Positions 448 through 58,056 of a stretch of 64,000 bases of DNA are shown in pieces. The DNA is from Malacoraja senta. Its lineage: Eukaryota. The stretch is taken from positions 24,306,001 to 24,370,000 of the forward strand of contig CM075987.1 of NCBI GenBank assembly GCA_038087875.1. Direction: 5' to 3'. The position numbers and the translations under genes were made by a program. The notes beneath the pieces were generated by a model. That model did no database searches, was not told the origin of the DNA, and saw only the letters and a list, made by a program, of their open reading frames with translations. Each line of letters begins with the position of its first letter. Position 1 is the first letter of the stretch.

Positions 448-660
448 AGAGACACAAAAAGCTGGAGTAACTCAGCGGGATAGGCAGCATCTCTGGAGAG
501 ATGGAATGGGTGACGTTTCGGGTCGAGACCCTTCTTCAGACCAGTCAGGGAAAAGGGAAACGAGAGATATAGACGGTGATGTAGAGAGATAAAGAGCAAT
601 GAATGAAAGCTATGCAGAAAAGTAACTGATAAAGGAAACAGGCCATTGCAGTTTGTTTTG
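448..660 (-). mobile_element. Penelope-like terminal repeat with intact hammerhead core (512-539)
   Basis: Minus strand CTGAAGA-A-GGGT-CTCG-ACCC-GAAACGTC. Confidence 0.75.
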
Positions 661-1414
661 ATATGACAGCACAGTTTGAGATCAACTTTCACCAGTGCTT
701 CACCAGTGCTTCACCAGTGCCTCACGCACACCCCCAGATTCAGGGACAGTTTCTTCCCAGCTGTTATCAGGCAACTGAACTATTCCACCAACAACTAGAT
801 AGCAGTCCCAAACTTCTATCTACCTCATTGGACTATCCTTGACCGGACTTTGTTGTGCTTTACCTTGCACTAAAAGTTATTCCCTTTATCATGCATCTGT
901 GCAGTGCGAATGGCTCGCTTGTAATCATGTATTGCCATTCCGTTGGCTGGTTGGCACGCAACAAAAGGCTTTTCACTCTACCTCGGGACACGGGACAATA
1001 AACTAAACTGAGAACTGGGAACACCAGCGTGGCTCATGGCAGTGAGCTGACTTGCTGGGTAGACACTTTGGAAAGAGTTGCCGCAACTTTATAAGGCTGG
1101 ATTGTTTTAATGGGGGAAGGGGCCAGTAACCTCATGGAAAGCTGAGAGAGAGAGCGGAATGCTCCTGGGATGTATGAAGTTAGCATTGCAGGCGGCAATT
1201 TGCAAAGAGTCACAGAATGCCATGTGGCAAAGCAACAGATACACCATCCAAAACTTCCAAGTACAGTCAGAGCAGCGAAACAAACGGGAGCCTGGCCGCT
1301 TCCCATCAGCTGATATCCTCCCTGCTGATCTGCCCAATTATTCACAACTTCCTTGCGTTTCTTCACGAGCTGAGATTGAATAAAAAATGGTGACATAAAA
1401 CCGCTAACAGAACA

Positions 1415-1740
1415 GGGCGGCACGGTGGCGCGCCGGTAGAGTTTTTCCCTTACAGCGCCAGAGACCCGGGTTCGATTCTGACTACGGGTGCTGTCTGTAT
1501 GGAGTTTTGTACGTTCTCCCCGTGATCTGCGTGGGTTTTCTCTGGGAGCTCGGGTTTTCTCCGGGAGCTCCGTCTTCCTCCCACAGTACAAAGACGTACA
1601 GGTTTGTAGGTTGCAGGCAATTGGGTTTGGAAAAATTGTGTGTGTAGGATAGTGTTAGTGTGTGGGGATGGCTGGTCGGCGCGGACCCGGTGGGTCGAAG
1701 GGCCTGTTTCCGCGCTGTATCTCTAAACTAAACTAAACTA
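1415..1740 (+). mobile_element. HE1-type tRNA-derived V-SINE
   Basis: A box TGGCGCGCCGG, B box GGTTCGATTC, conserved body, CR1-like 3' end, (TAAAC)n. More than 25 full or partial copies in the window. Confidence 0.9.
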
Positions 1741-1792
1741 TACTTTCTGATTGTGCAATCAAGGTGGCATCGTCCTGAATCCTTCGTTCTAC

Positions 1793-3843: not shown

Positions 3844-4484
3844 ATTCTTGCATGCTTGTGAGAATGTGGTTCTTAAGGTATTTACATGAAGGCCCATTGA
3901 TGGGGCAAATAGTAAAATTAATCGGAGTAGAACTTGTTCTTATATTGCGTGTCGTAAACATGTGGCACAAGAACATGTTTAAGAAGGAACTGCAGATGCT
4001 GGGAAATCGAAGGTAGACAAAAATGCTGGAGAAACTCAAGAGAGTGCGGCAGCATCTATGGAGCGAAGGAGATAGGCAACGTTTCGTTCGCTCCATAGAT
4101 GCTGCCGCACCCGCTGAGTTTCTCCAGCACTTTTGTCTACCTGGCAAAAGAACATACTGTGTTTTGAATTTGGCTTTTGCATTTCACTTCCACTGATTTC
4201 AATGGAAACAGTTCCTTCCTTCGTTTCCCATTTCTATTCAATATATTAATTGAACTTGGTTTCTCCAGCCTCACCATTACAATGTGACTTTTGAAGGTCC
4301 TTTGCAAGTTTTTTTTTTTTTTCAATGTTAACACATTTCTCAAAGGAATTCAGACTCTTCCTTCAAACATTATGGATAAACGGCAGCAAAAAGCATCTTA
4401 GTTGTAAAATGCAAAGTGCTGCAGCCACTCAGCAGGTCGGGCAGCATCTCTGGAGGACATGGATAGTCACCATTTTGGGTTCAG

Positions 4485-6164: not shown

Positions 6165-6530
6165 TGTTGGGCACTTTACAACCGAGTGGTATGAATGTCG
6201 AACTTCAAGTCACCCTTGCATCCTCTCTCTTTCCGTCCCTCCCCCGCCTAAGTTGTTGTACTAGTTTCAAAGTCGTCTTGTTGAGTCTCATTGTCTGTAA
6301 CTTGTTTTCACCTCGCCCACAGCTAACAATGGCCTGTTTCCTTTATCATCGTTACTTTTTTGCATATCTTTCATTCATTTTGTTCTATATCTCGCTATAT
6401 CACCATCTCTATCTCTCGTTTCCCATTCCTTTGACTCTTGGTCAGAAGAAGGGTCTCGACCCGAAACATCACCCTTTCTTTTTCTTCAGGGATGCTGTCT
6501 GACCCACTCCAGCTTTTTGTGTCTATCTTG
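6165..6530 (+). mobile_element. Penelope-like 3' fragment
   Basis: LGTLQPSGMNVE remnant, 3' UTR and degenerate hammerhead core near 6441-6470. Confidence 0.7.
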
Positions 6531-6589
6531 AAGTATATTGATTAGGGCAATCTTATATTCCTTATGCTCAAAGTGAAACAAGAGTATTA

Positions 6590-7107: not shown

Positions 7108-7682
7108 TTAGAAGGGTCTGAAGAAGGGTCTTGAGCCGAAACGTCACCTATTCCTTCTCTCTAGAGATGCTGCCTGTCCCGCTGAGTTACTCCAGCTTTT
7201 TGTGTCTATCTTCGGTTTAAACCTGCATCCGCAGTTGCTTCCTGCACAAGAGTATTAGACAATGGTTAAGTTCATCATTTTTTAATTTCCACTCCTCCAT
7301 GTAATTTGCAGGCTAGGGACAGATTAAATGATGTTATTTTAATGTGGCCGACAGTACTGTTGACGATTTAATTATAAACATGCAAATCGACTGATATCTG
7401 CTTCAGGAATTCGAAGGGTGCAAACATGAGGTCGGTGGCTTCCTGGAAATATCCCACAAGTGACCTCGAACAATTAGACACAGACATGCACGCACGCATG
7501 CACACACTAACACAAAGCATTTTCTCAGCACAAAACATCCCCTTCAGTCTCCCATTCTATCTCTACCATATGTGTCAAGCTGATCAGGCTGCAAGAGCTA
7601 TTTTCTATTTGGAACAACAAAAAACTTAAATTTAAAAAAAATTCCAGCTGCTCTTCCTTTAAAGCCAAAATTCCTACTGGCA

Positions 7683-8100
7683 AGAAGATCGACACAAAAT
7701 GCTGGAGCAACTCAGCGGGACAGGCGGCGTCCCTGGAGAGAAGGAATGGGTGACGTTTCGGGTCGAGACCCTTCTTCAGACTGAGAGTCAGAGGAGGGAA
7801 AAACTAGAGATATGGAAGGGTAAGGTGTGGAAACGACAGGTGATAAGGAAATGTAGAATGATTCATTGTTGGCTGAGGGGAAGCTGATCGACAGCATCTG
7901 CTTTGATCTGTCGTTTTCACATCTTACCCTTCCATATCTCTAGACTCCCTCTCCCCCGACTCTCTGTCTGAGAAGAAGGGTCTCGACACGAAACGTCTCC
8001 CCGTTCCTTTGCTCCAGAGATGCTGCCTGTCCCGCTGAGATAGTCTAGCATTTTGTGTCTATCTTCGGTTTAAACCAGCATCTGCAGTTCCTTCCTACAC
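7683..8100. mobile_element. Penelope-like fold-back insertion (inverted plus direct terminal repeat)
   Basis: Long imperfect inverted arms; intact hammerhead core on - at 7752-7779. Confidence 0.75.
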
Positions 8101-9664: not shown

Positions 9665-10338
<674 letters not shown>

Positions 10339-11004
10339 TTTTAAAGGCTTGTTTTCATGTACATTTTTTTGCGGAGTTATAAATCGGAAAATCCTCAGAA
10401 GGTTTTCGTTTGCGGGAAGACACATCTGTTAACAAAATGTAAGAAAGGTCCAATTACGACTAACTTTAGCTCGACGTAATCAGTACGTTAGCAGGCAAAT
10501 AACTACAAAACCAAAAATGTTTCCTTCCAAAAATGCACAGACACATCAGCAGAGGTATTTGCTTGCAAGGTAATGCTTTATCTTCGATTTAAACCAGCAT
10601 CTGCAGTTCTTTCCTGCACATTTTGCTTGCAAGGTAATGCTTTAGGTGCCCAGAGTCTGGAAGGTCAGACTGTTAATCTCTGCCGACTGGGTTTCTGCGG
10701 TACTTAAGGCTGTGATTTAGGTGTTTTTCTTGATGTTTAAGGATTCACATGAACCCTGAAATGGCTGGGGTCACAGTGGTGCAGTGACCAAGTTTGCAGT
10801 GCGAGCAGTTGGCCAATTGAGCCTCGCCGCACTCCATCAGAGTCCGCGCACATTAAGAGGCCGACTTCTACCCGACACAATATTCACGTCCGTCTGCTTT
10901 CTGTTTGGATACAAGTCAGCAACTTAAGAAGGTCCCACCCATTAAAGTACCTGACACTTGGACCCTTCCACCGGCCCAGATTTTGAACATTACAATGGAC
11001 GAGT

Positions 11005-11032
11005 CTGAAGAAGGGTCTCCACCCGAAACGTC
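11005..11032 (+). ncRNA. Minimal hammerhead ribozyme core in a PLE repeat
   Basis: CTGAAGA-A-GGGT-CTCC-ACCC-GAAA-CG-TC; stem I only about 2 bp. Confidence 0.55.
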
Positions 11033-11327
11033 ACCCATTCCTTCTCTCCAGAGATGCTGCCTGTCCCGCTGAGTTGCTCCAGCATTTTGTGTCTACCTTC
11101 GTTATAATGAATGAATTGAGAGGGAGATGGGTGACAGAGATGTTGCCTGTCGTGCCTGGAGCCAGAAAAGTCGTGCAGACCCATTATTGCCAGCATCCTC
11201 TGTTACTGAAAGCCCTACATCTTTCAAAGCAGATTAGAAATAATAAACAGTGCTATATCGAACGGCGGCAAAAGAGAGCTCGACTGAGCACAAACTATAA
11301 TCTTTTTCTGGGATTGCCAACTTCTTA

Positions 11328-12052: not shown

Positions 12053-12218
12053 GTACACAAAAATGCTGGAGAAACTCAGGATTCTTCTGAAGAAGGGTTT
12101 CGGCCCGAAACGTTGCCTATCTCCTTCGCTCCATAGATGCTGCTGCACCCGCTGAGTTTCTCCAGCATTTTTTGTGTACCTTCGATTTTCCAGCATCTGC
12201 AGTTCCGTCTTAAAACAC
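12053..12218 (+). mobile_element. Short PLE insertion with inverted 5' piece and hammerhead core (12087-12114)
   Basis: 14-bp TSD TCTAACTATTGACT (12039-12052, 12219-12232). Confidence 0.8.
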
Positions 12219-13811: not shown

Positions 13812-14645
13812 TTCAGTTTAGTTTATTGTCACGTGTACCGAGGTACAGTGAAAAGCTTTTTGTTGCGTGCTAACCAGTCAGTGGAAAGTCAATACATGAT
13901 TACAATCGAGCCATTTACAGTGTATAGATGCGTTTAGTGCAAGGTAAAGCCATTAAAGTCCGATCAAATATAGTCCAAGGGTCAACAATGAGGTAGATTT
14001 GCCTGATAACACCTGGGAAGAAACTGTCCCTGAACCTGGAAGGTGTGCATTCTTGTACACTTCTATACATTTTTCCCGATGGGAGAGGGGGAGAAGAGGG
14101 AGTGGCCGGGTTGCGGCTCGTCCTTGATTATGCTGCTGGCCTTGCCGAGGCAGCTTGAGATATAAATGGACTCAATGGAAGGGAGGTGGACAAAAGTGCT
14201 GGAGAAACTCAGCAGGTGCAGCAGCATCTATGGAGCGAAGGAAATAGGCAACATAGAAACATAGAAACATAGAAAATAGGTGCAGGAGTAGGCCATTCGG
14301 CCCTTCGAGCCTGCACCGCCATTCAATATGATCATGGCTGATCATCCAACTCAGTATCCCGTGCCTGCCTTCTCTCAATACCCACTGATCCCTTTAGCCA
14401 CAAGGGCCACATCTAACTCCCTCTTAAATATAGCCAATGAACTGGCATCAACTACCTTCTGTGGCAGAGAGTTCCAGAGATTCACCACTCTCTGTGTGAA
14501 AAATGTTTCGGGCCGAAACCCTTCTTCAGACTTCTCTTCAGAATCTCCTCAATGGAAGGGAGGTTAGTTTGTGTGACAGTCTGGGCCACGTCTACAATTG
14601 GCTGCGATTTCACGCTGTCTTGGATGGAGCTGTTCCCAGACCAAA
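13812..14645 (-). mobile_element. Rex1/Babar-like fragment with nested PLE and CR1 pieces
   Basis: 17-bp TSD CTCAATGGAAGGGAGGT (14171-14187, 14548-14564) around the nested insert. Confidence 0.75.
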
Positions 14646-15525
14646 CTGGGGGATGGATCCCGATAAACTCCGGGTTTAGATACTGACCATTGTCCCTGAA
14701 ACCCTGTGGCCTGGAGTTTGTAGCGCTCCCCACTCGCCTGATTGGGTCGCTGTCTTATTGAAGAGGAAGATGTGACATTTATTGCGCTTTTGGTTTGTAG
14801 ATAGAAAGCTGCAAAATCTGGGAGGCGTAAAATGGACCAAAGTTACTGTAATATTTACCAGTGTAACACCAGACTGCCTTTGGAGTAACTGTTTGTTTTG
14901 AAGGGTGTTGTTATAAGTGTAATACTTGTTGAAAAAGATCCAGATTGAAAACTAAGTGCATTTTAATAGTTTAAGAAAGAACTGCAGATGGTGAAAAAAA
15001 ATCGAAGGTAGACAAAAATGCTGGAGAAACTCAGCGGGTGAGGCAGCATCTACGGAACGAAGGAATAGGTGACCCAAGGGTCTCGACCCGAAACGTCACC
15101 TATTCCTTCGCTCCATAGATGCTGCCTCACCCGCAGAGTTTCTCCAGCATTTTAACAGTTTACTGGGTTACTTTGAAGGATTCTGTGCTGAATATTTAGT
15201 ATTCTGAAATGCCACAACATCCTCCTGCATTCTTAACTCCAAATTGCACCACTGGCAAACTGCCCACAATGGAGTTTAGTCCCAGCTTGTGTAACAAACA
15301 TTTAATACAGATGACAAAATGCCACATACATACTTTCGACTGATTTTAGTTCTTGGAAGTCCTTGATTGTTTGAGCCCATCACACAAAGTCATCCTTTCG
15401 AAGTGGGAGGTCCAATTTCAGTCAGAAGAGCCATTGAGGGGTGGGGGGGGTTAAAGGTGTGGTGTCAATGAAGTGCTGTCACTTCATTCACATCAATGCT
15501 TACATGGTCAATCGGCCCGTTCTTA

Positions 15526-16790: not shown

Positions 16791-16809
16791 TAAAAACATT
16801 AAAGACAGA

Positions 16810-17181
16810 TACGAAATGCTGAGAAACTCAGCAGTCCAGGCAGTATCTCCAGAGAAAAGGTATGGGTGACATTTTGGATTGAGACCCTTCTTCAGACTCA
16901 GAGGGAGGGGGAGACTAGAGATATGGAAGGGTAAGGCGTGAAAAGGACAGATCAAAGCAGACGATGATCGAGGAAATGTAGAATGGTTCATTGTTAGCTG
17001 AGGGGAGGGTGACAACGAGGTATACAACCTGTAAAATATCAGTACAATTAATCAGTGAAACTTGTGGGGGAGGGACAGAGAGAGAGGGAAAGCAAGAAGT
17101 TAGAGAAATCAATATTCATACCGCTGGGTTGTAAGCTGACCAAATATGAGGTGCCGTTCCTCCAATTTGCGTTGGGCCTCA
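16810..17181 (-). mobile_element. Penelope-like 3' fragment
   Basis: Degenerate EAQRKLEERHLIF..SLQPSGMNIDFSNF, then the same 3' UTR and terminal repeat. Confidence 0.8.
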
Positions 17182-19594
17182 ACGACATCAAATCAGTGCA
17201 ATTTCATGCAAGTGTTGAATTTCGTTAGCCGGAGGGTGGTGAATCAGTGGAATTCATTGCCACAGATGGTAGTGGAGGCCAAGTCAAGGGGTATTTTTAA
17301 AGCAGAGTTTAACGGGTTCTTGATTAGTAAGGGCGTCAAAGGTTACAGAGATAAGGCAGGAGAATGGGGTTGAGAGGGAAAATTATATCAGACATGATCG
17401 AACGGTGGAGCAGACCCGATGGGCCGAATGGCCTAATTCTGCTCCGATGTCTCATGGTCTTAAAGTCACAGGCACAGGTCAATTTTTGGCCATCATTTCT
17501 GGGGGAAATGTTTCCGTTAACTGTCCTTCCGCTGACTGGATAGCACGCAACAAAAGCTTTTCACTGTACCTCGGTCCACGTGACAATAAACTGAAGTTTA
17601 GTTTACCGAGGTACAGTGAAGAGCTTTTGTTGCCTGCTAACCAGTCAGCGGAAAGGACAGTTAACGGAAAACATTTCCCCCAGAAATGATGGCCCAAACA
17701 TTTATTCTGAATCGCACAACTCTGAAAACCAAGTGCTGTTAATTCAAATTTCGAGGCTCATTCTTGTGAGTGGCCCTGCAGCCCGTTACTAAAATAGAAC
17801 TAACCCAGACAACATTTGTTTGGGGACTAAATTCGATCCAGAATTTGCGAGAGAGTGGGGAGGCCTTTTGATCTTTCTGTTTGACCATTTACCACTTTCA
17901 AAGTTTGAAAACATAGGCAAAAAAAACACACACACACACATAGATGAACTTTGGCACCACTCCTAACTGCAGAGAACACTTACCTGACAGCTAGCATGAA
18001 GGGGACTGATTAGATGGATGAACGTTTGTGTGTCAGTGGCCCTGATAAAGAACATCGATGCTGAACAGAAGTAGAAAGAATTTATTTTGGGTCAGAACAT
18101 GAGATCTTAGGCTTTTAAACTTGAGGTCCAAGGTTATCTATACAGGCATGAGAACAAGAAAAATTGATGGCCCCTCGAACAGACAGATCTTTGAAAATGT
18201 GGTAAACAAGCCAGAAAGCTTTCAGTACAGGCCAATGCGATATTATGTGTTATTGTTATTTTAACACATACTTAAATATGTCGGCTACTTATTACATGGA
18301 GTGATGATACAGCTCTGTGTAAACCGCGGCTCATATCTGTAAGTTCAGTGCTGTTGTTTATAAACAGCAGTGAGCAGAGTTCCAGCGTTGGGTTCGGGCA
18401 TGACCTGGCACACAGTCACTTCATTCAACAAGATGTTTAAGAAAGAACTGCAGATGCTGGTAAAATCGAAGGTAGACAAAAATTGCTGGAGAAACTCAGC
18501 GGGTGAGGCAGCATCTGTGGAGCGAAGGAATAGGTGACGTTTTTCGGGTCGAGTCCCTTCTTCAGACTGATGAACAAGATCCTCGATCCAGTCTCGGATT
18601 CGGGGCCACGTTAGCTGCTTGCAGCCAGGGGAGCAGGTTTGGGATAGATGATCAGAATGAAACCCTTCCTGGCAATGGTGGGCTTCCCCGACCATCAGAG
18701 GGATTTACAGGAGTCGCTGCCTCAACAAGGCAGCCAGCATCATCAGAGACCCACACCACCCTGGCCACACACTCATTTCACTCCTGACATATATAGGAGC
18801 TTGAAAACTAACATCCAGGCTCAGGAACTGCTTCTTCCCTACAGTCACCAGGCTATTAAACACTACAACCTCCAAATAAGCTCTGAACTACATTGACTTG
18901 AGGGGCTTTGGTTTTGTCTTTTTGCACTATTATTGTGGGTTTGTTGTTTTTATTGGCAGATTCTTGCTTAGGGTAGGTGTCAGGGGTTATGAGGAGAAGG
19001 CAGGAGAATGGGGTTGAGAGGGAGAGATAGATCAGCCATGATTGAATGGCAGAGTAGACTTGATGGGCCAAATGGCCTAATTCTGCTCCTAGACCTTATG
19101 AACATTAACTAACTGTGGAAACCAATTGCGTTGGTTAATTGTGGGTCTTTACATACAAAGGGTTCAGTTCAGTTCAGTTTAGTTTATTGTCACGTGTGCC
19201 GAGGTACAGTGAAAAGCTTTTGTTGCGTGCTAACCAGCCAGAGGAAAGACAATACATGATTACAATCGCGCCGTTCACAGTATGCAGATACACAGGGGAA
19301 ATGTGAATATCTAAGATACTGCAAAACCAGCCATTTCAAATTGCTTATTCCACTTGAATAAGTTGTCTTCATTCCAAACTCAAATGAGAACAAGGATTAA
19401 ATTCTCACTGCCTGCTGCCAACACTCTTGAGTTTGCTTGTGTTTAGAACGTCCACCAGTAAACCAATTGTTGCCATAGTCATCTCCAAGGTCCCAAGTAC
19501 AAACTTGGAAACAACACATTACATGAAGCAGGGGGCTCCTGAGACTGCAAAGGCTCCCAAACTTTCTCTGAGAGTGAGGAATATTGATAATGAA

Positions 19595-19955: not shown

Positions 19956-21025
19956 AGATGAATATAATTTCAGCAGGCCGGGCCACTTTCAGTGCATTTT
20001 TGTGTTGTCAGAAAGGTCGCATTGCCATCAGGCCCCGTGAAAATGATGACCACATCCATAAGTACTACAGTACCACAATGAAGCTTTGACAGTAAACATG
20101 ACTGACAATTTGCCACATACCCGCGTCCTCCTTCAGCTCGCTTGTAGACAGATGCCTCGTGAACACTTCCTTTAGACTGAATCAATCAATATCTGGCTCT
20201 ATCATTCACATCTTTCAGACTGAATCAATCAATCTGAGGCCCTACTGCTTGAACCAACAGATGGGCAACATGAAAGTGTGGTTACTGATGGAACTCATCA
20301 GTAAACAGACATGGATAAATGTCACACACTGCACGACAATTGGTGTTTTAGGTACATTTCGAACAATTTTGATCTCATTTAGTTTTAAAGCCTTAAAGTG
20401 CCAGAGACCCGGGTTTGATCCTGACTACGGGTGCTGTCTGTACGGAGTTTGTACGTTCTCCCCGTGACCTGCGTGGGTTTGCCCCAGGTGCTCCGGTTTC
20501 CTCCCACACTCCAAAGACGTACAGGATTGTAGGTTAATTGGCCGGGCATTAATGTAACGTGTCCCAAGTGTGTGTAGGATAGTGTTAATGTGCGGGGATC
20601 GATGTGGACTCGATGGGCCAAAGGGACTGTTTCTGCGCTGTATCTCTAAACTAAACTAAACTAAACTAAACTAAACTAAACTAAACTACTCTAAAAGTGT
20701 AACAGGAATGATGGGTTAAACATAAAGTCATTGGATGACGGTGTCCTTGGATGGCAGTGATAATTCCAGACAATTAATTGGTAGCTGGGTTTTCTGTGAA
20801 TCTGTCTTATTTTCAATCCTTACCCAAATTGCTTTAGGACAGAAATCATAATTGACTGTCCATTAAATCGAGGTAATGAAAAATTTATAAAAATTACTTT
20901 AGATATCCGAAATCTAAAATGAAACAGAAAATGCTAGGAATTCTCAGCTGGCGAGGCTGCATCTGCGGGAAGAGAAACAGAGTGGACCAAAAAAGGGTCT
21001 CAACTCAACACATCTTCCAGAGATG

Positions 21026-21151
21026 TCTGAAGAAGGGTTTCGGCCCGAAACGTTGCCTATTTCCTTCGCTCCATAGATGCTGCTGCACCCGCTGAGTTTC
21101 TCCAGCATTTTTGTGTACCTTCGATTTTCCAGCATCTGCAGTTCCTTCTTT
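21026..21151 (+). mobile_element. Short PLE insertion beginning at the hammerhead core (21027-21054)
   Basis: 19-bp TSD AACACATCTTCCAGAGATG (21007-21025, 21152-21170); inserted into an older PLE copy. Confidence 0.85.
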
Positions 21152-36740: not shown

Positions 36741-38149
36741 CACCAGTTCACATGATATCACATTATATCACTTACATCAAGTGGGAAACTTAAGACATGG
36801 CAATAGGATTAACAAATATTAAGTGTACACCTTTCATCTTTAAACACTAGCTAATGACCCTAGGTATTGTTCTTAACTAGTCTGAGATCTGAAGAATGTG
36901 TGAATTGATAGGGTCTTAACAGCTGGTCTTAAGGCCAATGCATTACACAGCAAACATGTTGATGACAGAAGGAAAGGATATTTACATTAAATTTAGGAAT
37001 ATCACCCGTTGTCTTTTGAAGGGGTGAAATTGTCCAGTTGATCTGTTAAGGACTTGCATCTTTCTGCATCTGTCAAAAATATCAGACAGGGTTTTGCAGA
37101 AACAGATCTATTATCAAGATAGCAATCTTCAATGGTACGCTTGCAAAAACAGGCAGTGAAATTAATGACCAGCTAAAGAATGCTCATGCTGTTTAAAATG
37201 AGAGTGGAGTGTTACCTCAAAGTCTTTTGACTGAATAATGGGTTCTCAAACATCTGGAACCAGCCTTTGTACAGCTGTTCCACATCGCAACAAGAGGGTA
37301 GAGTTGCTGCCTTAACGCGACAGCGACCCGGGTTCGATCTAACTGGGGGTGCTGTCTGTACGGAAGTAGCACCTTCTCCCCGTGACTGCGTGGGTTTCCT
37401 CGGGGTGTTCCGGCCTCCCCCCCACACTCCAAAGACGTACAGGTTTGTAAGTTGACATAAAAAGCTGGAGTAACTCAGCGAGTCAGGCAGCATCTCTGGA
37501 GAAAAGGAATAGGTGACGTTTCGGGTCTGGACCCTTCTTCAGAATGAGAATCAGGGGAAAGGGAAAGGTTAGATCTAGATGAACAGATGAATGAAAGATA
37601 TGCAAAAAGGTAGCGAGTCTGGGTCAAAACGGGGTTGGAGAGTCGGCAAGCAGGAGGAATCACATTTGGGGATCTATCTCTCCCTCCTAACCTAATGCAT
37701 ACTTCCTTCTAAGTCTCGCTTGAAGAGCTCACAGCTGCTGCTCTCCATTTCTAATCCTCACGTGGATTCATGACCCCGGCTCTTTGCAGCTTGTAATAAA
37801 GATGAATCTGCTATCGTATCTGACACCTGCCCACACACACAGGTAGGAACATGCCAGCTTGAACCTTTAACCAAACCCTTTCCCCCTAGTATTTAAAATA
37901 ATATAAATCACTCTTACTCTTCATTTGAACAGTGGTATCAAGTGAGTTTGGAGCAAAGAAAAAAAAATGCCAGACCTTAAGTTTAGTACAGGTAGACAAA
38001 AATGCTGGAGAAACTCAGCGGGTGAGGCAGCATCTATGGAGCGAAGGAATAGGTGATGTTTCGGGTCTCGACCTGAGTTTCTCCAGCATTTTTGTTCACC
38101 TTAGATTTTTCCAGCATCTGCAGTTCCTTCTTAAGCATTAAGTTTAGTA

Positions 38150-40627: not shown

Positions 40628-42344
40628 ATCTGATTAGACCCTTGAAGGAAATACTATTCGGGCCGTTTTTCTTTCTTGTTTACCATTTCATCTGTGGAAT
40701 TCCTTCAGCCTGCAGCCTGGCCAAATGTGCCACCAGTTGACTGGTGTTTAAATTCTAACATAAAGCACCATGTCACGACTGCTAAGTTGATCACTTGAGA
40801 TTTGTGCACATTAATGAGAAAGTTGACTCAAAAATCGCATGTGGTTCATGTGAGCTCAAGCGGTCAACTCCGATAAAATGTGCGGAGTGCCCTGGTCTAG
40901 TGAAGTAATGAGGATTCCTTCAGTCAACCTGCACAGGATCAAATACTACAAATGAACTTTCACACCTTTCACTTCACTGGATTCCTATTCATACTTTCAT
41001 GCAGTTCATACGAGGAGAAATGAGGTGAATTAAGGGGAAATGGCTCCGCAAAGTTATGAAAGCTGGCACTGTGAGCAATCCAACCTAACATTGTGAAACT
41101 CCTGTTCAACAGCTTCACTGACTTTTCACGTAAAACAAAACTTATCAGTCTGAAGAAGGGTCTCGACCCGAAATATCACCCCATTCCTTCTCTCCAGAGA
41201 TGCTGCCTGTCCCGCTGAGTTACTCCAACATTTTGTGTCTATCTTCGGTTTAAACCAGAATCTGCAGTTCCTTCCTACAAGTATTACCTGTTGGGAGGTT
41301 CAATCATTGACAGACTTTGAAGTGATGTCTGTGTACCAAGTGAACTGATTAGTTTAGTTTAGATTTGCAGCGTGGAAACAGGCCCTTCGGCCCACCGTGT
41401 CCGCACCGACCAGCGATCCCCGCACATTAACACTACCCTGCACACACTAGGATAATTCTACATGCATACCAAGCCTAATCGAAGATCTCGGAGAAAGCCC
41501 ACGCAGGTCACGGGGAGAACGTACAAACTCCGTACAGACAGCACTCGTAGTCAGGATCGACCCTGGGTGCCTGGCGCAGTAAGGCCACAACTCTACCGCT
41601 ACGCCACCATGCCGCCCATTAACGTATAGAAAAATGTGCAGTGCTGTTAAAACGAATCCCAAGAGATGCTGTGTGAAAAACAGCTATTCACTGTTATTCA
41701 GCACTAACTGCAATGGCGGTACAATGTCCCTTTAATCCATTAACTTTAATTCTGCTGTTGCGTAATACACTGTTAAACATTGCTTCAGAGCCAATGCTTA
41801 AAACATCAACCACACTATCCTGTGTGGGAAGGAATTACAGATGAGCAAACTCAGCAGACCCAGCTGCCCCAGGTTTAATACATACCTCCTTCTAATACTC
41901 ACTTTTACAGCTCACTTCTTTAAGAGCTCACCCCGCACACAAAACACTATCCTGCACACTGGGGACAATTTACAATTTTACCGAAGTCAATCAACCTACA
42001 AATCTTCACATCTTTGGAGTGTGGGAGGAAAGCGGAGTACCTGGAGGAAACCCACGCAGTCACGGGGAAAACATATAAACTCAGCGATTCAATGATTCAA
42101 CGATACTTTATTATCACAACGGAGAGATATTTCTTATTTCCCTTTCCCCTGACTCTCCAGTCTGAAATAGGGTCTCGGCCCATAACCTCACCTGTGCCTT
42201 TTCTCCAGAGATGCTGTCTGACCCGCTGAATTACCCCAGCTTTTTGTGTCTAATGGTTTAAACAAGCATCTGCAGTTCCTTCCTACATACTTTATTCTCA
42301 CCTGTACCCAGGTACAGTGCAATGCCTTGTTTTGCATACAAACG

Positions 42345-43357: not shown

Positions 43358-44015
43358 TTTAGTTTAGTTTATTGTCACGTGAACCGAGGTTCAGTGAAAA
43401 GCTTTTGTTGCGTGCTAACCAGTCAGCGGAAAGACAATACATGATTACAATCGAACTCTTTACAGTACAAATGCATGATAAGGGAATAACGTTCAGTGCG
43501 AGGTAAAGCCAGTAAAGTCAATAGACAATAGACGGTAGACAAAATTGCTGGAGAAACTCAGCGGGTGCGGCAGCATCTATGGAGCGAAGGAAATAGGCAA
43601 CGTTTCGGCCCGAAACGTTGCCTATTTCCTTCGCTCCATAGATGCTGCCGCACCTGCTGAGTTTCTCCAGCAATTTTGTCTACCTTCGATTTTCCAGCGT
43701 CTGCAGTTCCTTCTTGAACATGGACAATGGACAATAGGTGCAGGAGTAGGCCATTCGCCCCTTCGAGCCAGCATCGCCATTCAATGTGATCATGGCTGAT
43801 CATCCCCAATCAGTCCGATCAAAGATAGTCCCAGGGTCAGCAATGAGGTAGATAGAAGTTCAGGACCGTTCTCTAGTCGTGGTAGGATGATTCAGTTGCC
43901 CGATAACAACCGGGAAGAAACAGTTCCTGAATCTGGAGGTGTGCGCTTTCACATCATACTTCTATTGTCGTGCCTTATGAGAGAGTGGAGAAGAGGGAGT
44001 GGCTAGGGTGCGAAT
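43358..44015 (-). mobile_element. Rex1/Babar-like 3' fragment with nested CR1 tail and PLE fold-back
   Basis: Family 3' UTR split at about 43520-43812. Confidence 0.7.
43534..43720 (+). mobile_element. PLE fold-back insertion
   Basis: Near-perfect hairpin of about 75 bp centred near 43608, plus a 3' tail. Confidence 0.85.
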
Positions 44016-46641: not shown

Positions 46642-47174
46642 TGTGTAGGAAGGAACCGCAGATGCTGGTTTTACACCGAAGATAAACACGAAATGCCGGG
46701 GTAACTCAGCGGGTCAGGCAGCATCTCTGGAGAGAAGGAAAGGGTGACGTTTTGGGTGGAGACCCTTCTTCAGACTGAGAGTCAGGGGAGAGAGACACAG
46801 AGATAGGGAAGGGTAAGGGGTGAAAATGAGATGTCAAAGGGATGGAGATGAAGGAAGATGTAAAATAGATGATTGTTAGCTCGGGGAAGGTGATGATGCA
46901 TGCGGAGATAAAACCCAATCAGGAGGACAGTCAGACTGGTTGGAGAATTAGGAAGGGAGAGAGATGGAGAGAGGGGGGAAAGCAAGGGTTACTTGAAGTT
47001 AGAGAAGTCAATGTTCATACCACTGGGGTGTAAGCAGCCCAAGCGAAATATGGGATGCTGTTCCTCCAATGTGTGTGTGGCCACACTCTGACAATGGAGG
47101 AGGCCCAGGGCAGAAAGGCCAGTGTGGGAATGGGAGGGGGAGTTAAAGTGTTTAGCAACCGGAAGATCGGGTAG
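46642..47174 (-). mobile_element. Penelope-like retroelement 3' fragment (GIY-YIG C-terminus, 3' UTR, hammerhead-bearing terminal repeat)
   Basis: 46989-47174 (-) reads LPDLPVAKHFNSPSHS...EEQHPIFRLGCLHPSGMNIDFSNFK*, typical of the PLE endonuclease end. It continues into a degenerate hammerhead core (46746-46773) and the common tail. Confidence 0.85.
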
Positions 47175-47604
47175 GTTTAGAGCGGAGGATATGGATCAGC
47201 ATCCGCTTCAAGATACTGAACGCTAAACTGCAGCGAGAGCACACACACACACACAGTAAGTGCTCGTTCGTGAACTTAATGGTTGAAAACTCTTCGCTCT
47301 GACGTCTTGTTTTTCCAATCCACATCGGTAAATACGAACATCCTTTCCAAGCTAAACAGCTAACTGCAGAGGATTTGGATGGTGTATGCATAAAGGGGAA
47401 ATGTCTGGCACTGTGTTCCTGGCAGAAAGCCCATCCCACTGGCAGGACACATCAGAATTCATGCGCCCATGGCCCATGGTTTTCCGACCACTCATTTTAA
47501 ACAGGAGCAGCAAATTACTCTTAGAACTTATTGATACCCATCAGTATTTAAAATTCACACGAAAAGTCCAACTGATCTTAGAATTCTTAGAATAAAGGGG
47601 GGGG

Positions 47605-48018: not shown

Positions 48019-48310
48019 GGACGGCACGGTGACGCAGAGGTTGCGTTGCTGTCTTACAGCGCCAGAGGCCCGGGTTCGATCCTGACTACACGTGTTTGTC
48101 TCCCCGTGACCGCATGGGATTTCTTCAGGTGCTCCTGCTTCCTCCAACACTCCAAAGACGTACAGGTTCGCAGGTTAATTGGCTTGGTTTCAATGTAAAT
48201 TGCCCCTAGTGTGTGTAGGATAGTGTTAGTGTGCGGGGATCGGTGGTCGGTGCGGACTCGGTGGGCCGAAGGGCCTGTTTCCGTGCTGTATCTCTAAACT
48301 AAACTAAACT
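48019..48310 (+). mobile_element. HE1-type SINE
   Basis: Family match with a small internal deletion. Confidence 0.85.
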
Positions 48311-48321
48311 ATACTGAAGAA

Positions 48322-48560
48322 GTCTGAAGAAGGGTTTCGGCCCGAAACGTTACCTATTTCCTTCGCTCCATAGATGCTGCTGCACCCGCTGAGTTTCTCC
48401 AGCATTTTTGTGTACCTTAAACTAAACTATTAGCTGTTTAAGAAGGAACTGCAGATGCTGGAAAATCGAAGGTAGACAAAAATGCTGGAGAAACTCAGCG
48501 GGTGAGGCAGCATCTAGATGCTGCCTCACCCGCTGAGTTTCTCCAGCATTTTTGTCTACC
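48322..48560. mobile_element. Two adjacent short PLE insertions; intact hammerhead core at 48324-48351
   Basis: CTGAAGA-A-GGGT-TTCG-GCCC-GAAA-CG-TT, followed by a fold-back copy. Confidence 0.75.
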
Positions 48561-50164: not shown

Positions 50165-51469
50165 TCGACTGGTCTGCCTTCTGTCTGAAGACTGGAGTGA
50201 GAAAAAACAAAGGAATAAAGACACAAACGACACATTGAATGAACAAACCCCACAAAAAAATAGCATGATTTATGCCTGTTTCGGCCGGCCGGCCACTGGC
50301 CAAAACCCCTTCAACACCCACCCGCACCCCATACATCACCCTCTCTCTCTCCCCCATATATATTTAAAGATTTCTTTTTAAAAAAAGGGTTACAAACACA
50401 ATCCCGCCAAATCCAAAAAAAGTTTAGGCAAAGTGGAAAACAATAAGTTCAGACGCAACACAAAGATGAATCGTCCATCGAAAGATTACCGAACAATTTA
50501 GAGATGGAGCAATGATTACAGAAAGGAAACAGCGGTCACCATGGCTGCTGCTGCTGCTGCCCGTAAACTAACCTACTCAAGAGTGTGAGAGTAGGTTAAC
50601 ACCAAACTCAAACTTCAGTCTATCTGCCTTAAGCAAAACTTCAGCTCTGTTTTAAAACCCTTTGATTTCATCTCTGAATCTTTTCATCGAAAACAGATCC
50701 AGCCAAAAGAATGGGCCACAATACCAGGGAAACAAAACCTGCTGGCACTCATTGCAATTGCTCTTCCCATGGAACCAATATCGAGTCAGGGGGGGGGAAC
50801 TTCAGACCAGTATAAAGGTACACTTAGTGGATTGGTGTGAATGTGGGGAAATCACTGCAAGGGTGATCATTGAGCGGAATAAACCTCGGGGGGGAGGAGG
50901 AGAGGCAAAAAGGCCTTGAAACGCTTGCAACGGTGACAAACGAGTTATTTTGTTATGAGCAGCTACTAAACATTGGCCTTGCCAACCCCAAGGACTACCT
51001 GGCAAACCGAGGTCTGCAACAGGAAGGAACTGCGGATGCCGGGTTTACACCAAAGATAGACACAAAACGCTGGAGTAACTCGGCAGGTCAGGCTGCATCT
51101 CTGGAGAACAGGAATCGGTGACGTTTTTCGGTGACGGCTTGATCCGAAACATCACCTATTCCTCTTCTCCAAAGATGCTGCCTGACCCGCTGAGTTACTC
51201 CAGCATTTTGAGTCTATTTACAGGGAGGCTTAGTTTAAGTTGAGGTTCAACATTGTCACATGCATGGAAGTACCGCGAGAAACCTTGTTTTTTGCATTCC
51301 ATCCATACAGGTCAGATATACCATATATAGTTTAGTTCCATTTTATTATTGTCACGTGTAGCGAGGTGCACTGGAAAAAAAAATTTGCCTGCTATCCAGT
51401 CAAGGAAAGACTAAACATGAAAAAATACAGAGATACAATCAAGTCCAAACTCAAGTCCTATCTGGGACA

Positions 51470-51648
51470 AAAATGCTGGAGAAACTCAGCGGGTGAGGCA
51501 GCATCTATGGAGCGAAGGAAATAGGCAACGTTTCGACCCGAAAGGTTGCCTATTTCCTTCGCTCCATAGATGCTGCCTCACCCACTAAGTTTCTCCAGCA
51601 TTTTTGTCTACCTTCGATTTTCCAGCATCTGCAGTTCCTTCTTAAACA
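51470..51648 (+). mobile_element. PLE fold-back insertion in the putative 3' UTR
   Basis: 14-bp TSD TCCTATCTGGGACA (51456-51469, 51649-51662). Confidence 0.85.
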
Positions 51649-53575: not shown

Positions 53576-54857
53576 AACAAGGTTTGTAGGCTAATTGGCT
53601 TGGTACAAAATGCACAAATGTAAAATTGTCCCTAGTGTGTGTGGGGTAGTGTTAATGTGCGGGGATCGCTGGTCAGTGTTGAAGGGACCCGTTTCGCACT
53701 TTATCTCGAAACTAAACTAAAGTGAAGTATCACAAAAAGATTCAAGGGGCAGAGGTCAGAATTTCACTGCTTATTTCTGTCATATTATTTCCAATCTACA
53801 ATTGCTTGTAGTGTCACCCTCCCCGGGGTCATTGACTGAATGATTTCATCCAGGTATCTCTGGAAGTTTTGTTCAGTACGAGGCTTCCTGCTAGAAATGG
53901 TTAAGCATGACTCAACGTGCCAATAGGTAGCATCATAATGAAATATTGTCTTGCATTTGGGCTACTCTAGATATTTGTCTGGTATGTATTTACTTGTTTT
54001 AACAGAGACATTAATCTGCGATGGTCTAACACACAAGTACGGCAAATGTTCCCTGTTATCAATAACAGTTATTTGTAGCCTTTCAACACCAACAGTCACA
54101 ACACTTTGTTCTAGATTCACACAAGAAAGTTAAAGCATTCTGCAATTGAATTTAATAGTTCTGAGGAATACTGAACACACTATGTTGCGTACACACAGAG
54201 AATTGCCAGCACCTCAAAGGGTTTCGGCCCGAAACGTTGCCTATTTCCTTCGCTCCATAGATGCTGCTGCACCCGCTGAGTTTCTCCAGCACTTTTGTCT
54301 ACCTTTGAGCACCTCAAAGGAATCTGCCAATGTTCCTGGGTCTCGACCCGAAACGTCACCCATTCCTTCTCTGCAGAGATGCTGCCTGTCCCGCTGAGGT
54401 ACTCCAGCATTTTGTGTCTACCTTTGATTTAAACCAGCATCTGCAGTTCTTTCCTACACAGATTTCCCCAGTAGCAATTTCCTAATGCAAAGAGCACCGT
54501 TCAATATTTTACATGGTGACAACAATATCCATGTAACAGAACTTAAAATATCATGATTAGTGGAGTCAAAATATCTGGTTAACAACAATCAGGAAGCATA
54601 TACAAATCAATATCCCTACAATATGAATCAAACAATATTACATTTCAAGTGACTATTAATTTACAAATTCTTCACAAGTTTAGTCAAAATTAGTTTGCCC
54701 TTCCTGTGGCAAAGTTATTAACGTCTTTAAATTAGTTGGTTAAAAGAATGAACAGCAATCTGATACAAATGTGTTGTGACATTTGTGCGGTTCCTTCATG
54801 GCCTGAATCTACTAATATCATGTAATGTGAGGCGTGTGTACACGACACTGAGGAATG

Positions 54858-55169
54858 GGCCGGCATAGTGGCGCAGCGGTAGAGTTGCTGCCTTACAGTG
54901 CCAGAGACCCGGGTTCGCTCCCGGCTATGGGTGCTTGCCTGTACGGACTGTGCACGTTCTCCCCTTGACCTGCGTGGGTTTTCTCCGAGAGCTTCGGTAT
55001 CCTCCCACACTCCAAAGACGTGCAGGTTTGCAGCTTAATTGGCTTGGTATAAATGTGAAAATTGTCCCTAGAGTAGAATAGTGTTAATGTGCGGGGGATG
55101 TCTGGTCGGAGGGCCGAAGGGCCTGTTTCCGCGCTGTATCTCTAAACTAAACTAAACTAAACTAAACTA
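54858..55169 (+). mobile_element. HE1-type SINE
   Basis: Full-length family match. Confidence 0.85.
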
Positions 55170-57919
55170 GAAGGAGGGAACCTCAAGAGAAGGATGCACA
55201 TTTTGTTCAGTTCAGTTAAGTTCAGTTTATTATCACGTGTACCGAGGTACGGTGAAAAGCGTTTGTTGATTTTCATATCCATGGCATTAGCGAGAAGGCA
55301 AATCCTGGCGTTGGTTTAATAATTTTTTAACAAAGAGTGCAAAATGCAACATTTCCAGCAGAATCCCAGCAGAACGCAATCGTCCAATCTTTATCGTGGT
55401 GGCGATGCGACTCAAAGCTTTCCCACAGACAGTATTTCCCCGTCAACCTGTTGGTTAGGACCTCAGTTGACTCATACTTTTGGCTGGTTGAGGTGTGTCA
55501 AAACAGAAAAAGTAGAACATGCCAATTTCAAAGGGAATTTGAAGCAAGACAAGCTACCTCCCATCTCTCTTCCATTTTGCCTGGTTGTAACTGTCGGTCC
55601 TTATTGGTTTTACCTGTGTTGTTTTAAAGAAAAAAATATTTCATGCTGCAGATTCCTGACAGGCGAGGTTGTGCAAACTACATGGTCTGAGATTAAAAAG
55701 AGAGAAAAAAAAAAATCTTACCACAGCATTAGGGTTTAGACATTAAAAAAAACATAGTTCTCCATAGGATTTTGGTGTGCAGTTGCGTCTTAATGTCTTG
55801 TCGATTTTCGTGCATAGTATTAACTCCAGCTAGAGGGAAAAAAAAGAACAACTTTTTGACATTTAATTGTTTAAGTGTTTAAAGTGTTTATTTGTATTTT
55901 TGTTATAAACTTTTGCTTAATTGTATTTAATCAGTATTTTTATTGTGCTCGGTAACTGCATTTGGAACTCCTGTACAGTCATTTGCAAAAGTCTACATCA
56001 ATGTTTGTTTCTTGAAAAGCTGCTAAAGTCAGACAGGTATTTTTTTTGTATCCAAATCTATTTTTAAATTTTAAGTTTTGTTTCCTAAGGCTTTGCATAC
56101 ATAATATCTCGTGCATTTAAAAATTTCTTTTTTTTTGTTAAAAAGAGGTGATTAGTTTAGCTACAATAGCAGCCATTATATAAGGGACAGTCAGATGCAG
56201 AGAGCGTGGACGGGAAACAAAAACTCGATCAAATGTTGCCGTTGAAAGAGTTAATACTCACACTTCCGTTCAAACCTTTCATACGACGGTAAGATTTGTT
56301 GGGAAGACCCTTGGCTCTTGCTAATTAATCACAAATATTTTGTTTTATATAATCAACGAAAATTGTATTAAGATGATAGTTATTCAATATTTGCTTTTTT
56401 TTTCTTTTGTTGTTATTTAACAGCATACAAGAATATTGCTGCTTTTAACAATGAAATATTTCAATCATGGGAGGCAGATAAATTCAGTCAAAATACCGAA
56501 TTCTGACCATCGATTTAAGTACCAAGTCACATCTGCTGGTGCGATGCTGGTCACTGGTAAACTGGTCACGATAATATGTTTTAAAAACACTCTCTCTCCC
56601 CCCACGACCAATCCTTGTGAACAGAAGGTAATCTTACTCGCAAAGTTCCCACATTATCTGTAGAGGCATTTTTATTTTCCAGAAGAGTACAAGAAGTCTT
56701 GGTTTCTAATTGATCATTTACCTGTCTGCATAATACATTTCAAGCTGTGATTTCTTTGAGGGAGGAAATATTTTCATGTGGTAACCGCCATTGTGAAAAA
56801 CCTGGTATTTATTAGTCATTCTAGTTACTTGTTGGGCACCTTATGGAAGTCATAAAAACAATAATCAAATTAAGTGCTGAAAAAAAAAGTTATAAATGTA
56901 ACAGTCTACTGTAATATCATATCTTTTGCTGTACCTCATGCTTGTAAGCTAGCTGCTTTTTAATGTTTAGTTTAATTTAAATTTCCTAGCAATATATAAA
57001 GATGTAAATAGTAGAGTTATTTATTAAGAATGTCATCCATTTTTAATTTATATTTACACTTTTATCATCTAAATTATTTTTACAACCTTATACATTTCCG
57101 TTGTTACAGCCATTTTATTACCATAATGGTATGATAGGCTATGAGAGATCTCCAAGAGACATACACTGTGTTCCTCCTGTAGGTCTCTCATGTTGAAGTA
57201 CAGACCATCTAACCACATGCAATTTAGTGTAACACATATATCTGTGGACTGATTACCCTTTGCCATTGCTGTGACTCCCTTTGAAAACAAAACCTCGATA
57301 TACCTCCTGAAGTGGTTTTGGGTCGGTCAATGACCAAGTATCAATGGCGTCTAATGAACAAGTGTATAAGATAGTGCCGCTGTTAAAATGACCCGAAGTA
57401 GAGTCCTACGGATGGGATGAGTTAGAAAGCAAACCTTAGATTTCAAATAGGTAAAATTGATCGGATGAAGCAGTTCCAATTTTCCTCATGACATCTACCA
57501 GACGTGCCCGGCCATGTTTATATTTGTTCTGCTTTGTCCGGCCTCTTTTCTCTACCATCTTTCTTTCCTGCCCATTCCACCCCCCCCCCCCCCCCCCCAC
57601 TCGACAATCAGTCTGAAGAGGAGTCTCGCCCCAAAATGTCACCTATCCCTGTTCTCCAGACTCCAGCACCCTGTGTCTTTCCTGGTTTATCCTTAATTCG
57701 ATAAATCTTCCATCACTGCATTAGTAAAATTAAAAATCTTCCTTCGTTCAAAAATAATCAATATGAAATCAATACTTTGTCACTGTGAGCAAATCAAGCA
57801 CCGTGACGAATAATTGATTTAATATTGATTACTTTTGAACGATGGAAGGTTTAAAGTTGGACTAATGCCTGATTTGCACACAGTGGATTCAACAACTAAA
57901 CTGTACATATCATCACAAC

Positions 57920-58056
57920 ATCTCAGTCTGAAGAAGGGTCTCGACTCAGAATGTCACCCATTCCTTCTCTCCAGAGATGCTGCCTGTCCCACTGAGTTAC
58001 TCCAGCATTTTGTGTCTATCTTCAGTTTAAACCAGCATCTGCAGTTCCTTCCTACA
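57920..58056 (+). mobile_element. Short PLE insertion, hammerhead core mutated
   Basis: 15-bp TSD ACATATCA(T/C)CACAAC (57905-57919, 58057-58071). Confidence 0.8.

What the first reader, a model, noticed from the sequence alone, without database searches (positions are those of the whole stretch)
448..58056. Abundant short repeat is a hammerhead-bearing Penelope-like terminal repeat
Seen: many copies contain CTGAAGA-A-[stem II]-GAAA-CG-TY. Cores are intact at 512-539(-), 7752-7779(-), 11005, 12087, 21027 and 48324(+). Two subfamilies keep stem II in different forms (GGGT-CTCG-ACCC with a GUC site; GGGT-TTCG-GCCC with a GUU site). At 46642-47174, 16810-17181 and 6165-6530 the repeat is contiguous with a GIY-YIG C-terminus. 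Established: Penelope-like elements carry minimal type I hammerheads with a palindromic stem III region that work as dimers, and an extra A after A9 occurs in natural hammerheads. Caveat: stem I is only 2-4 bp in these copies.
Basis: partly seen in the sequence, partly recalled or inferred. Interest (0 to 1): 0.7.

Follow-up and report, generated by a model that had tools for sequence, protein, structure and literature searches.

The report
Skate Penelope retroelement ends with hammerhead
This stretch of probably skate or ray DNA holds dozens of short leftover ends of a known type of jumping gene with a weak-looking self-cutting RNA motif, and the regular shape of those leftovers hints at how such elements insert.

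Summary
Observation confirmed. The window holds 43 loci (58 arms, about 6.8 kb) that are 5'-truncated 3' ends of a Neptune-type Penelope-like element (PLE), probably in a skate or ray. Three run back into a GIY-YIG C-terminus whose relatives are full RT+GIY-YIG ORFs. The same minimal hammerhead lies just after the ORF in 20 of 29 related loci. Hammerheads in PLE ends are published, and this scan has noted them in at least 29 other genomes, though not this repeat.

Activity is doubtful. Stem I is mostly 2 bp (3-5 in relatives), a rival hairpin is favoured, and no RNA ends pile up at the cut site. The 'second stem II form' is better explained as palindrome perfection than as selection.

The anatomy is the more useful result. 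3' ends fall in two classes about 36 nt apart. All 14 head-to-head pairs join one long end to one short end. 42 of 58 5' ends lie in or beside the hammerhead, but not at its cut. This fits the two reverse-transcription start sites shown in vitro for an anole PLE, used in a coupled way on uncleaved RNA. New member of a known kind.

The parts
46992..47195 (-). C-terminal 68 codons of a Neptune-type GIY-YIG endonuclease (stop at 46989-46991)
46774..46988 (-). pyrimidine-rich 3' UTR / upstream part of the pLTR
46746..46773 (-). hammerhead core of the longest copy (G12 changed to A); predicted cut 46746/46745
46642..46745 (-). region 3' of the cut site; the last ~36 nt (46642-46678) are the optional tail
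16802..17181 (-). GUC-type copy from the GIY-YIG end to the short 3' end; damaged core
6167..6529 (+). GUC-type copy from the last GIY-YIG codons to the short 3' end; damaged core
442..618 (-). GUC-type copy with part of the UTR; intact core 512-539; stem I 3 bp
7684..8100 (.). head-to-head pair: short arm (-) with intact core 7752-7779, long arm (+)
7116..7248 (+). single long arm, GUC type
11002..11107 (+). single short arm, GUC type, core at 11005
12053..12215 (.). head-to-head pair, GUU type, 14-bp TSD; core at 12087
14184..14532 (-). GUU-type short arm split by another insertion; 17-bp TSD
14969..15153 (.). head-to-head pair, 16-bp TSD
18434..18570 (-). single long arm (A2 type), 8-bp TSD
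21025..21155 (+). single long arm, GUU type, 19-bp TSD; core at 21027
3976..4142 (.). head-to-head pair, 14-bp TSD
24868..25056 (.). head-to-head pair (older C type)
25368..25559 (.). head-to-head pair joined in the stem II palindrome
26853..27039 (.). head-to-head pair joined in the 15-nt palindrome, 12-bp TSD
28265..28448 (.). head-to-head pair (older C type)
35978..36236 (.). partial tandem (long then short arm) plus inverted short arm
37990..38137 (.). head-to-head pair, 15-bp TSD
43528..43720 (.). head-to-head pair joined in the 15-nt palindrome, 13-bp TSD
48321..48418 (+). single short arm, GUU type, 13-bp TSD; core at 48324
48435..48560 (.). head-to-head pair joined at +46, 15-bp TSD
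51021..51217 (.). head-to-head pair (older C type)
51466..51648 (.). head-to-head pair, 14-bp TSD
54217..54308 (+). single short arm, GUU type, 13-bp TSD
57921..58056 (+). single long arm, GUC type, 15-bp TSD
10579..10620 (+). tail-only insertion (+89 to end), 23-bp TSD
41145..41279 (+). single long arm, GUC type (representative of the remaining single arms listed)

Best explanation
The repeat is a set of dead, 5'-truncated insertions of the 3' terminal repeat (pLTR) of a Neptune-type Penelope-like retrotransposon. The pLTR carries the clade's minimal type I hammerhead motif about 215 nt after the GIY-YIG stop. Shown here: identity, position of the motif, TSDs, two 3' end classes, long+short head-to-head pairs, and 5' ends crowded into the hammerhead. 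Inferred mechanism: the element's protein cuts both strands of the target with a stagger (TSD 8-23 bp). It primes reverse transcription on uncleaved RNA at two internal sites ~36 nt apart, 3' of the hammerhead. Synthesis mostly stops in or beside the hammerhead. The two cDNAs are joined there, often through its palindromes; or one arm is lost, leaving a single copy. The ribozyme is at best weak, needing a dimer and protein help, and it is not needed to make these copies.
For: IDENTITY. The best long hits of the 68-aa piece are proteins named from skates, 64-68% identical, with GIY-YIG and a CX2-5CxxC linker. A close relative joins PLE RT motifs, the linker and GIY-YIG (P0028). The piece matches the C-terminal endonuclease region of 34 of 53 RT-bearing proteins of 734-1126 aa. 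MOTIF POSITION. The motif lies 86-211 nt after the ORF in 20 of 29 related loci (15 by a strict pattern), against 1 of 156 control windows (0 strict). One full-length locus (L004) has it in both pLTRs. An alignment with relatives folds stem II with a two-sided change. ANATOMY. 28 arms end 0-8 nt from the full end, 28 end 28-46 nt short, none end between, and 2 are shorter. 14 of 14 head-to-head pairs are long+short (p=6e-5 against 50:50; single arms are 14 long, 13 short, 2 other); 8 of the 14 pairs lie inside one TSD. An independent Neptune family shows the same two end classes, and 2 of 2 clearly informative inverted loci are long+short. UNCLEAVED TEMPLATE. 42 of 58 5' ends lie at -13..+28, but only 1 at +26..+30. 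In reads and contigs of related organisms, loose ends pile at -3, and no place has many RNA molecules beginning or ending. Published in vitro for an anole PLE: both strands extended, two internal start sites, uncleaved RNA as the main template, protein-assisted ribozyme (PMC11167929).
Against: No full-length parent from this organism was recovered: no genome was held and DNA pattern scans were empty. The link from the RT to this particular repeat therefore runs through protein homology. Arm ends come from alignments and may be off by several bases. At least 3 of the 42 clustered 5' ends (loci at 5761, 8201, 57608) probably continue into diverged upstream sequence, and very short arms are under-detected. 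The read depth upstream of the core cannot be used, because the UTR is diverged. PolyA RNA-seq is a weak test for cut ends, and the run is from another organism. The two-primer reading is not separated from fold-back synthesis by these data: arms are no more alike within a pair than between copies.
Confidence: 0.8

Rival explanations
1. Same element, but the head-to-head copies come from one cDNA that folds back at a hammerhead palindrome and copies itself (self-priming), then joins the far DNA end before reaching the tail.
For: Junctions sit in palindromes in several pairs. Self-priming was proposed for PLE inversions with palindromic junctions (PMC3846280 Discussion). Fold-back gives long+short pairs naturally. 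Short ends overlap the TSD slightly more than chance (17 nt over 10 junctions against 8.6 expected, p=0.02, post hoc and rough).
Against: In 5 of 14 pairs the short arm reaches further 5' than the long arm; later central deletions in a palindrome could also cause this. Single short arms with their own TSD (14184, 48321, 54217) need priming at the short site anyway.
Confidence: 0.3
2. The young A-type copies (GUU and A2) come from a short non-autonomous RNA of ~135 nt, a retrozyme- or SINE-like derivative mobilised by the PLE protein, rather than from truncation of long transcripts.
For: 0 of 14 A-type loci extend beyond -5, against 7 of 29 B/C loci beyond -13. A-type copies are 94-100% identical to their consensus, and 13 of 14 have TSDs. 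Head-to-tail joints of a 135-nt unit occur in two DNA runs (8 and 7 contigs). PLE-derived tandem retrozymes are reported in one chondrichthyan (bioRxiv 10.64898/2026.07.22.740005).
Against: The difference is not significant (Fisher p=0.076). 5' ends vary from -5 to +64 rather than sitting at one start. No window copy reads into a preceding unit. A 2-nt CA microhomology can explain the tandem joint as a template jump.
Confidence: 0.25
3. The hammerhead is an active processing ribozyme kept by selection in this lineage, and cleaved or circular RNA is the template.
For: 14 of 15 constrained core positions are unchanged across four subfamily consensuses, against 21 of 101 variable columns downstream. 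D. virilis Penelope also has a 2-bp helix I (PMC4209133).
Against: That contrast is weak (1 of 15 against 21 of 101). Predicted pairing of stem II in the monomer is 0.00-0.15 in 8 window copies, against at least 0.56 in 12 of 14 relatives. The active dimer lies 17.5-37.3 kcal/mol above the best fold, against 10.7-19.1 in relatives. No cDNA or RNA ends pile up at the cut site.
Confidence: 0.3

Closest known systems
Minimal hammerheads in the pLTRs of metazoan PLEs (Cervera and de la Pena 2014, PMC4209133)
   Same: Type I core, extra nucleotide between 9 and 10.1, G10.1-C11.1, palindromic 15.2-16.2 with no helix III, mostly dispersed single truncated copies; reported in Neptune, Poseidon and Xena elements of fishes.
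   Different: Helix I is mostly 2 bp here (4-5 bp in the Schistosoma families; 2 bp in D. virilis). Cartilaginous fish are not named in the parts I read.
Neptune (or Nematis) clade EN+ PLEs (features from Craig et al. 2021, PMC8557442)
   Same: C-terminal GIY-YIG with a CX2-5CxxC linker in relatives; 5' truncation; inverted 5'-adjacent copy; 30-40-bp tail often at one end only.
   Different: No RT from this organism, so no tree. The strict long+short rule and the crowding of 5' ends in the hammerhead are not stated in the passages I read.
PAc, Poseidon of Anolis carolinensis (Frangieh et al. 2024, PMC11167929)
   Same: Two internal start sites 3' of the hammerhead bracketing the tail; both strands extended; uncleaved RNA as template; no RNA-seq ends at the cut.
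   Different: Different clade. There the ORF starts in stem II; no conserved frame was seen here. In vitro the start site did not differ between strands, which by itself does not predict 14 of 14 mixed pairs.
Adineta vaga Penelopes (Arkhipova et al. 2013, PMC3846280)
   Same: Head-to-head pLTRs with palindromes at the junction, 8-10-bp TSDs, tail on one of the inverted pLTRs.
   Different: Here the junction palindromes are parts of the hammerhead, and the copies are very numerous and short.
Non-LTR retrozymes derived from PLEs (bioRxiv 10.64898/2026.07.22.740005)
   Same: Short hammerhead-bearing units related to pLTRs; found in one chondrichthyan genome.
   Different: Defined by tandem units with intact hammerheads; the window has dispersed and inverted copies and only one decayed partial tandem.

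Membership tests
EN+ Penelope-like element | C-terminal GIY-YIG endonuclease directly before the pLTR | tested here: met
   (C-terminal piece only; the GIY-YIG motif itself is seen in the relatives)
EN+ Penelope-like element | Telomerase-like RT in the same ORF | tested here: inconclusive
   Absent from the window; present in relatives that share the C-terminus. No parent from this genome.
EN+ Penelope-like element | Partial tandem or inverted pLTRs, optional 30-40-bp tail, TSDs | tested here: met
   14 inverted pairs, 1 partial tandem, tail mode 35-37 nt, TSDs at 16 of 43 loci against 3% in random flanks
Neptune clade | CX2-5CxxC linker before a C-terminal EN (absent in Penelope/Poseidon) | tested here: inconclusive
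   Met in the nearest relatives P0002, P0003, P0021, P0028 and most full ORFs; that region is not in the window
Neptune clade | Placement in an RT tree | not tested
   No RT from this element and no labelled reference set; Nematis is not excluded
Minimal type I hammerhead | Conserved core, extra nucleotide after A9, G10.1-C11.1, palindromic 15.2-16.2, NUH site | tested here: met
   8 of 21 cores intact, the rest decayed; same layout at 19 sites in 14 related loci
Minimal type I hammerhead | Helix I of about 3-5 bp | tested here: inconclusive
   2 bp in 12 of 21 cores, 3-4 bp in 4 of 21; a 2-bp case is published for D. virilis
Minimal type I hammerhead | Self-cleavage as a dimer | not testable with these tools
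   Folding is unfavourable; no pile of RNA ends
Non-LTR retrozyme | Two or more consecutive tandem units with complete hammerheads | tested here: not met
   Not in the window; head-to-tail joints seen only in contigs of related organisms

The most novel reading that the evidence does not exclude
One RNA, two start sites, two DNA ends. A dimeric PLE enzyme assigns the tail-distal start site to one end of the cut target and the tail-proximal site of the same RNA to the other end. Every double-ended insertion is therefore long+short. The hammerhead region, mostly misfolded and perhaps no longer catalytic in this lineage, acts as the stop-and-join point where the two cDNAs halt and anneal through its palindromes. 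This would give PLE hammerhead sequence a role other than cleavage and explain inverted pLTRs and the one-sided tail together.
Probability: 0.3. Interest if true: 0.62.

Novelty: new member of a known kind. Interest (0 to 1): 0.3.

Why it matters
The identification itself is ordinary: PLE ends with minimal hammerheads are published for many animals. Its practical use is that roughly a tenth of this window is PLE debris that looks like a SINE or a microRNA hairpin. What could interest a specialist is the regularity. The integration mechanism of PLEs is still open. A strict long+short rule and 5' ends crowded into the hammerhead give a concrete prediction. It can be counted on many copies in any skate or anole assembly and tested in the published in vitro system.

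Tried and rejected
Rfam: no hammerhead family matched at E up to 1. The microRNA-family hits are all below gathering score, and several lie on the inverted pairs. No genome was held.

Exact DNA pattern scans of viral and metagenome contigs found 0 matches. No RNA holder was listed by the run search; this is no evidence on expression.

Intron idea: the sequence before the core resembles a 3' splice site, as in D. virilis Penelope. Rejected as unsupported. Most relatives have no AG there, and no GT..AG skip appeared among the 15 joints shown; 585 joints were hidden.

Shared tail motif between this repeat and a metagenome Neptune family: it looked striking by eye. Only 2 of 20 pairwise comparisons were clearly above shuffles, and profile searches in both directions were negative. 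Rejected.

Conserved reading frame starting in the hammerhead: judged by eye from the subfamily sequences; no frame stays open in all of them. Tail hairpin (AGATGCTG/CAGCATCT): present in all four subfamilies but invariant, so no covariation evidence. Microhomology at the long end: not above chance. Private variants shared within pairs: not informative.

Literature: searches for hammerhead + Penelope + shark, Penelope + skate or Chondrichthyes, Penelope-like + twin priming and solo/non-autonomous pLTR listed no paper on this family or on the long+short rule. The library lacks most subscription papers, and Repbase/Dfam could not be consulted, so the family may already be catalogued. Lunse et al. 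(dimer cleavage) is not held; one guessed id was a different paper. The scan's own notes hold 225 Penelope-hammerhead findings in at least 29 genomes (8 seen, none on this repeat), and nothing by sequence, by place or by narrower words.
Full report
OBSERVATION. Positions are given relative to C3 of the core (0); the predicted cut is between +27 and +28. The 28-nt pattern has 14 matches with at most 3 mismatches and 0 in 100 shuffles. A profile from nine window copies found 62 fragments. I grouped them into 43 loci with 58 arms, about 6.8 kb, leaving out two weak regions. The copies fall into four types: A1 (GUU), A2, B (GUC) and an older, looser C. Of 21 measurable cores, 8 are intact. Stem I is 2 bp in 12, 3-4 bp in 4, and 0-1 bp in 5. 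Many breaks hit the CG of the stem III palindrome, as expected from decay of methylated CpG (inference).

IDENTITY. 46992-47195(-) encodes 68 residues ending at a stop 215 nt before the core. It has no Pfam hit alone. Its two long hits are proteins named from Leucoraja and Rhinoraja, 64-68% identical, with a GIY-YIG domain and a CX2-5CxxC linker. So the host is probably a skate or ray (inference). A full scan gave 123 relatives. One of them (P0028) carries PLE RT motifs, the linker and GIY-YIG. Searching with it gave 53 proteins of 734-1126 aa with RT and thumb families, and the window piece matches the C-terminal endonuclease region of 34 of them. The linker is present in Neptune, reduced in Nematis and absent in Penelope/Poseidon (PMC8557442, passages). 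I made no tree. The other two linked copies hold only the last 12-30 codons. All three linked copies are B type with damaged cores.

THE MOTIF IS A CLADE FEATURE. I fetched 80 related loci from metagenome contigs, host unidentified. A descriptor allowed zero or one extra base and any palindromic spacer. It found 19 sites in 14 loci, all with the extra A and CG, and with stem I of 3-5 bp in differing sequences. The motif follows the ORF by 86-211 nt in 20 of 29 loci with enough flank (15 by the strict pattern), against 1 of 156 control windows. L004 has it in both pLTRs around a long ORF. With relatives included, the consensus fold is stem II with a two-sided change. This matches the published minimal PLE hammerhead (PMC4209133, parts 1-2 of 4).

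IS IT ACTIVE? Not shown, and predicted to be poor. In window copies the purine-rich core pairs with the strand after the cut site. Stem II probability is 0.00-0.15 in 8 copies, against at least 0.56 in 12 of 14 relatives. The double hammerhead lies 17.5-37.3 kcal/mol above the best fold (A1: 27.9-37.3), against 10.7-19.1 in relatives. The rival hairpin survives in all four subfamily consensuses. These energies ignore tertiary contacts and protein, and the anole PLE ribozyme cleaved only with protein (PMC11167929, parts 1-3 of 4). The A1 'second form' needs two changes (+12, +16), and both perfect a 15-nt palindrome, +10..+24. Templated palindrome correction explains them without selection (inference). 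Core columns vary in 1 of 15 positions across subfamilies, against 21 of 101 downstream, which is weak support for constraint. In 17,434 polyA RNA reads of another organism, no place had many molecules beginning or ending; this is a weak test.

INSERTION ANATOMY. TSDs of 8-23 bp bracket 16 of 43 loci: 13 of 14 A-type and 3 of 29 B/C; random flanks score so in 3%. 3' ends are bimodal: 28 arms end within 8 nt of the full end, 28 end 28-46 nt short (mode 35-37), none end between, and 2 are shorter. All 14 head-to-head loci have one long and one short outer arm (p=6e-5), while single arms split 14 long, 13 short, 2 other; 8 of the 14 lie inside one TSD. A 19-member related family has the same two classes (about +81..+101 and +145..+163). 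Its two clearly informative inverted loci, L013 and L056, are long+short; L041 is complex, and L017 and L019 have no defined long end. By alignment, 42 of 58 5' ends lie at -13..+28, 8 further upstream and 8 further downstream, and only 1 lies at +26..+30. At least 3 of the 42 probably continue into a diverged UTR. Junctions often fall in palindromes of the hammerhead region. In reads and contigs of related organisms, loose ends with unrelated flanks pile at -3 (753 reads; 552 contigs). Strand-switch joints recur between +33..+43 and -1..-10, and head-to-tail joints of a 135-nt unit occur in two DNA runs. RNA depth is about 5,800 over the core's 5' part and 540-970 over the GIY-YIG end; depth in the UTR cannot be used.

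MECHANISM. The published in vitro work shows two internal start sites bracketing the tail, extension of both strands, and uncleaved RNA as the main template. I infer the same here, with synthesis stopping in the hammerhead and the arms joining there. The 14 of 14 rule needs coupling: either both ends are primed on one RNA at its two sites, or one cDNA folds back, as proposed for rotifer Penelopes (PMC3846280, passages and Discussion). In 5 of 14 pairs the short arm reaches further 5', which favours two primers, but later deletions could mimic this. The likeness to L1 twin priming is recalled, not read. Whether A-type copies come from a short non-autonomous RNA is open (0 of 14 against 7 of 29 extending, p=0.076).

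KNOWN AND NEW. Inverted pLTRs, junction palindromes, a one-sided 30-40-bp tail, TSDs and weak dimer-dependent hammerheads are all published (and PMC6765202 passages). Tandem PLE-derived retrozymes are reported in one chondrichthyan (bioRxiv 10.64898/2026.07.22.740005, parts 1-2 of 5 and passages). The PAc supplements held as text had no matching terms, and its figures were not seen. PMC6155905 was seen as passages only. Lunse et al. was seen only as a reference title. My searches did not list the family or the strict pairing rule, but coverage is limited and repeat libraries were not available. Verdict: new member of a known kind, interest 0.3.

Noticed in passing
window 30006-31632: Young Tc1/mariner transposon of the Sleeping Beauty type: 223-nt terminal inverted repeats 97% alike with inner direct repeats, and a 349-codon stop-to-stop frame (30213-31262, -) with HTH and DDE domains. 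The C-terminal residues look frame-shifted (judged from recall of the family).
   Followed up: partly
window 21859, 37990-38137, 43528-43720, 48321-48560, 4412: Several PLE ends sit in or beside the short tandem-repeat tails of other retroelements, two of them side by side at 48321 and 48435; possible target bias for microsatellite tails.
   Followed up: no
window 14184-14532: A GUU-type copy with a 17-bp TSD is split at +25..+27 by a ~250-bp insertion, which therefore is younger.
   Followed up: partly
window 48314, 14541, 12080, 7110: Short duplications of core sequence at 5' junctions, like reverse-transcriptase stutter at the stopping point.
   Followed up: no
window-wide, e.g. 48251-48318, 55100, 58894: A second very abundant short repeat family whose 3' end matches dozens of places; by recall it is the tRNA-derived V-SINE/HE1 type of cartilaginous fish. 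Not tested.
   Followed up: no
window 62681-63948: LINE fragment on the minus strand with an RVT_1 hit at 63559-63921; CR1-like by recall.
   Followed up: no
proteins P0002, P0003, P0004, P0006, P0043: Database gene models fuse this GIY-YIG piece to unrelated host domains (DUF4518, 3CxxC zinc ribbon, GPCR, NYAP); probably annotation artefacts, exonisation not excluded.
   Followed up: no
L004 910-1110 and 3976-4176: Apparently full-length Neptune-type element with a long open ORF and a hammerhead in both pLTRs; an in-frame ATG lies at the cut site (1057).
   Followed up: partly
window 17517-17664: Long inverted-repeat hairpin not belonging to this repeat (best Rfam microRNA-family hit, below gathering score).
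   Followed up: no
window about 9650-10340 and about 1790-1990: A ~700-bp (TG)n-type microsatellite, and a 200-base assembly gap of N.
   Followed up: no
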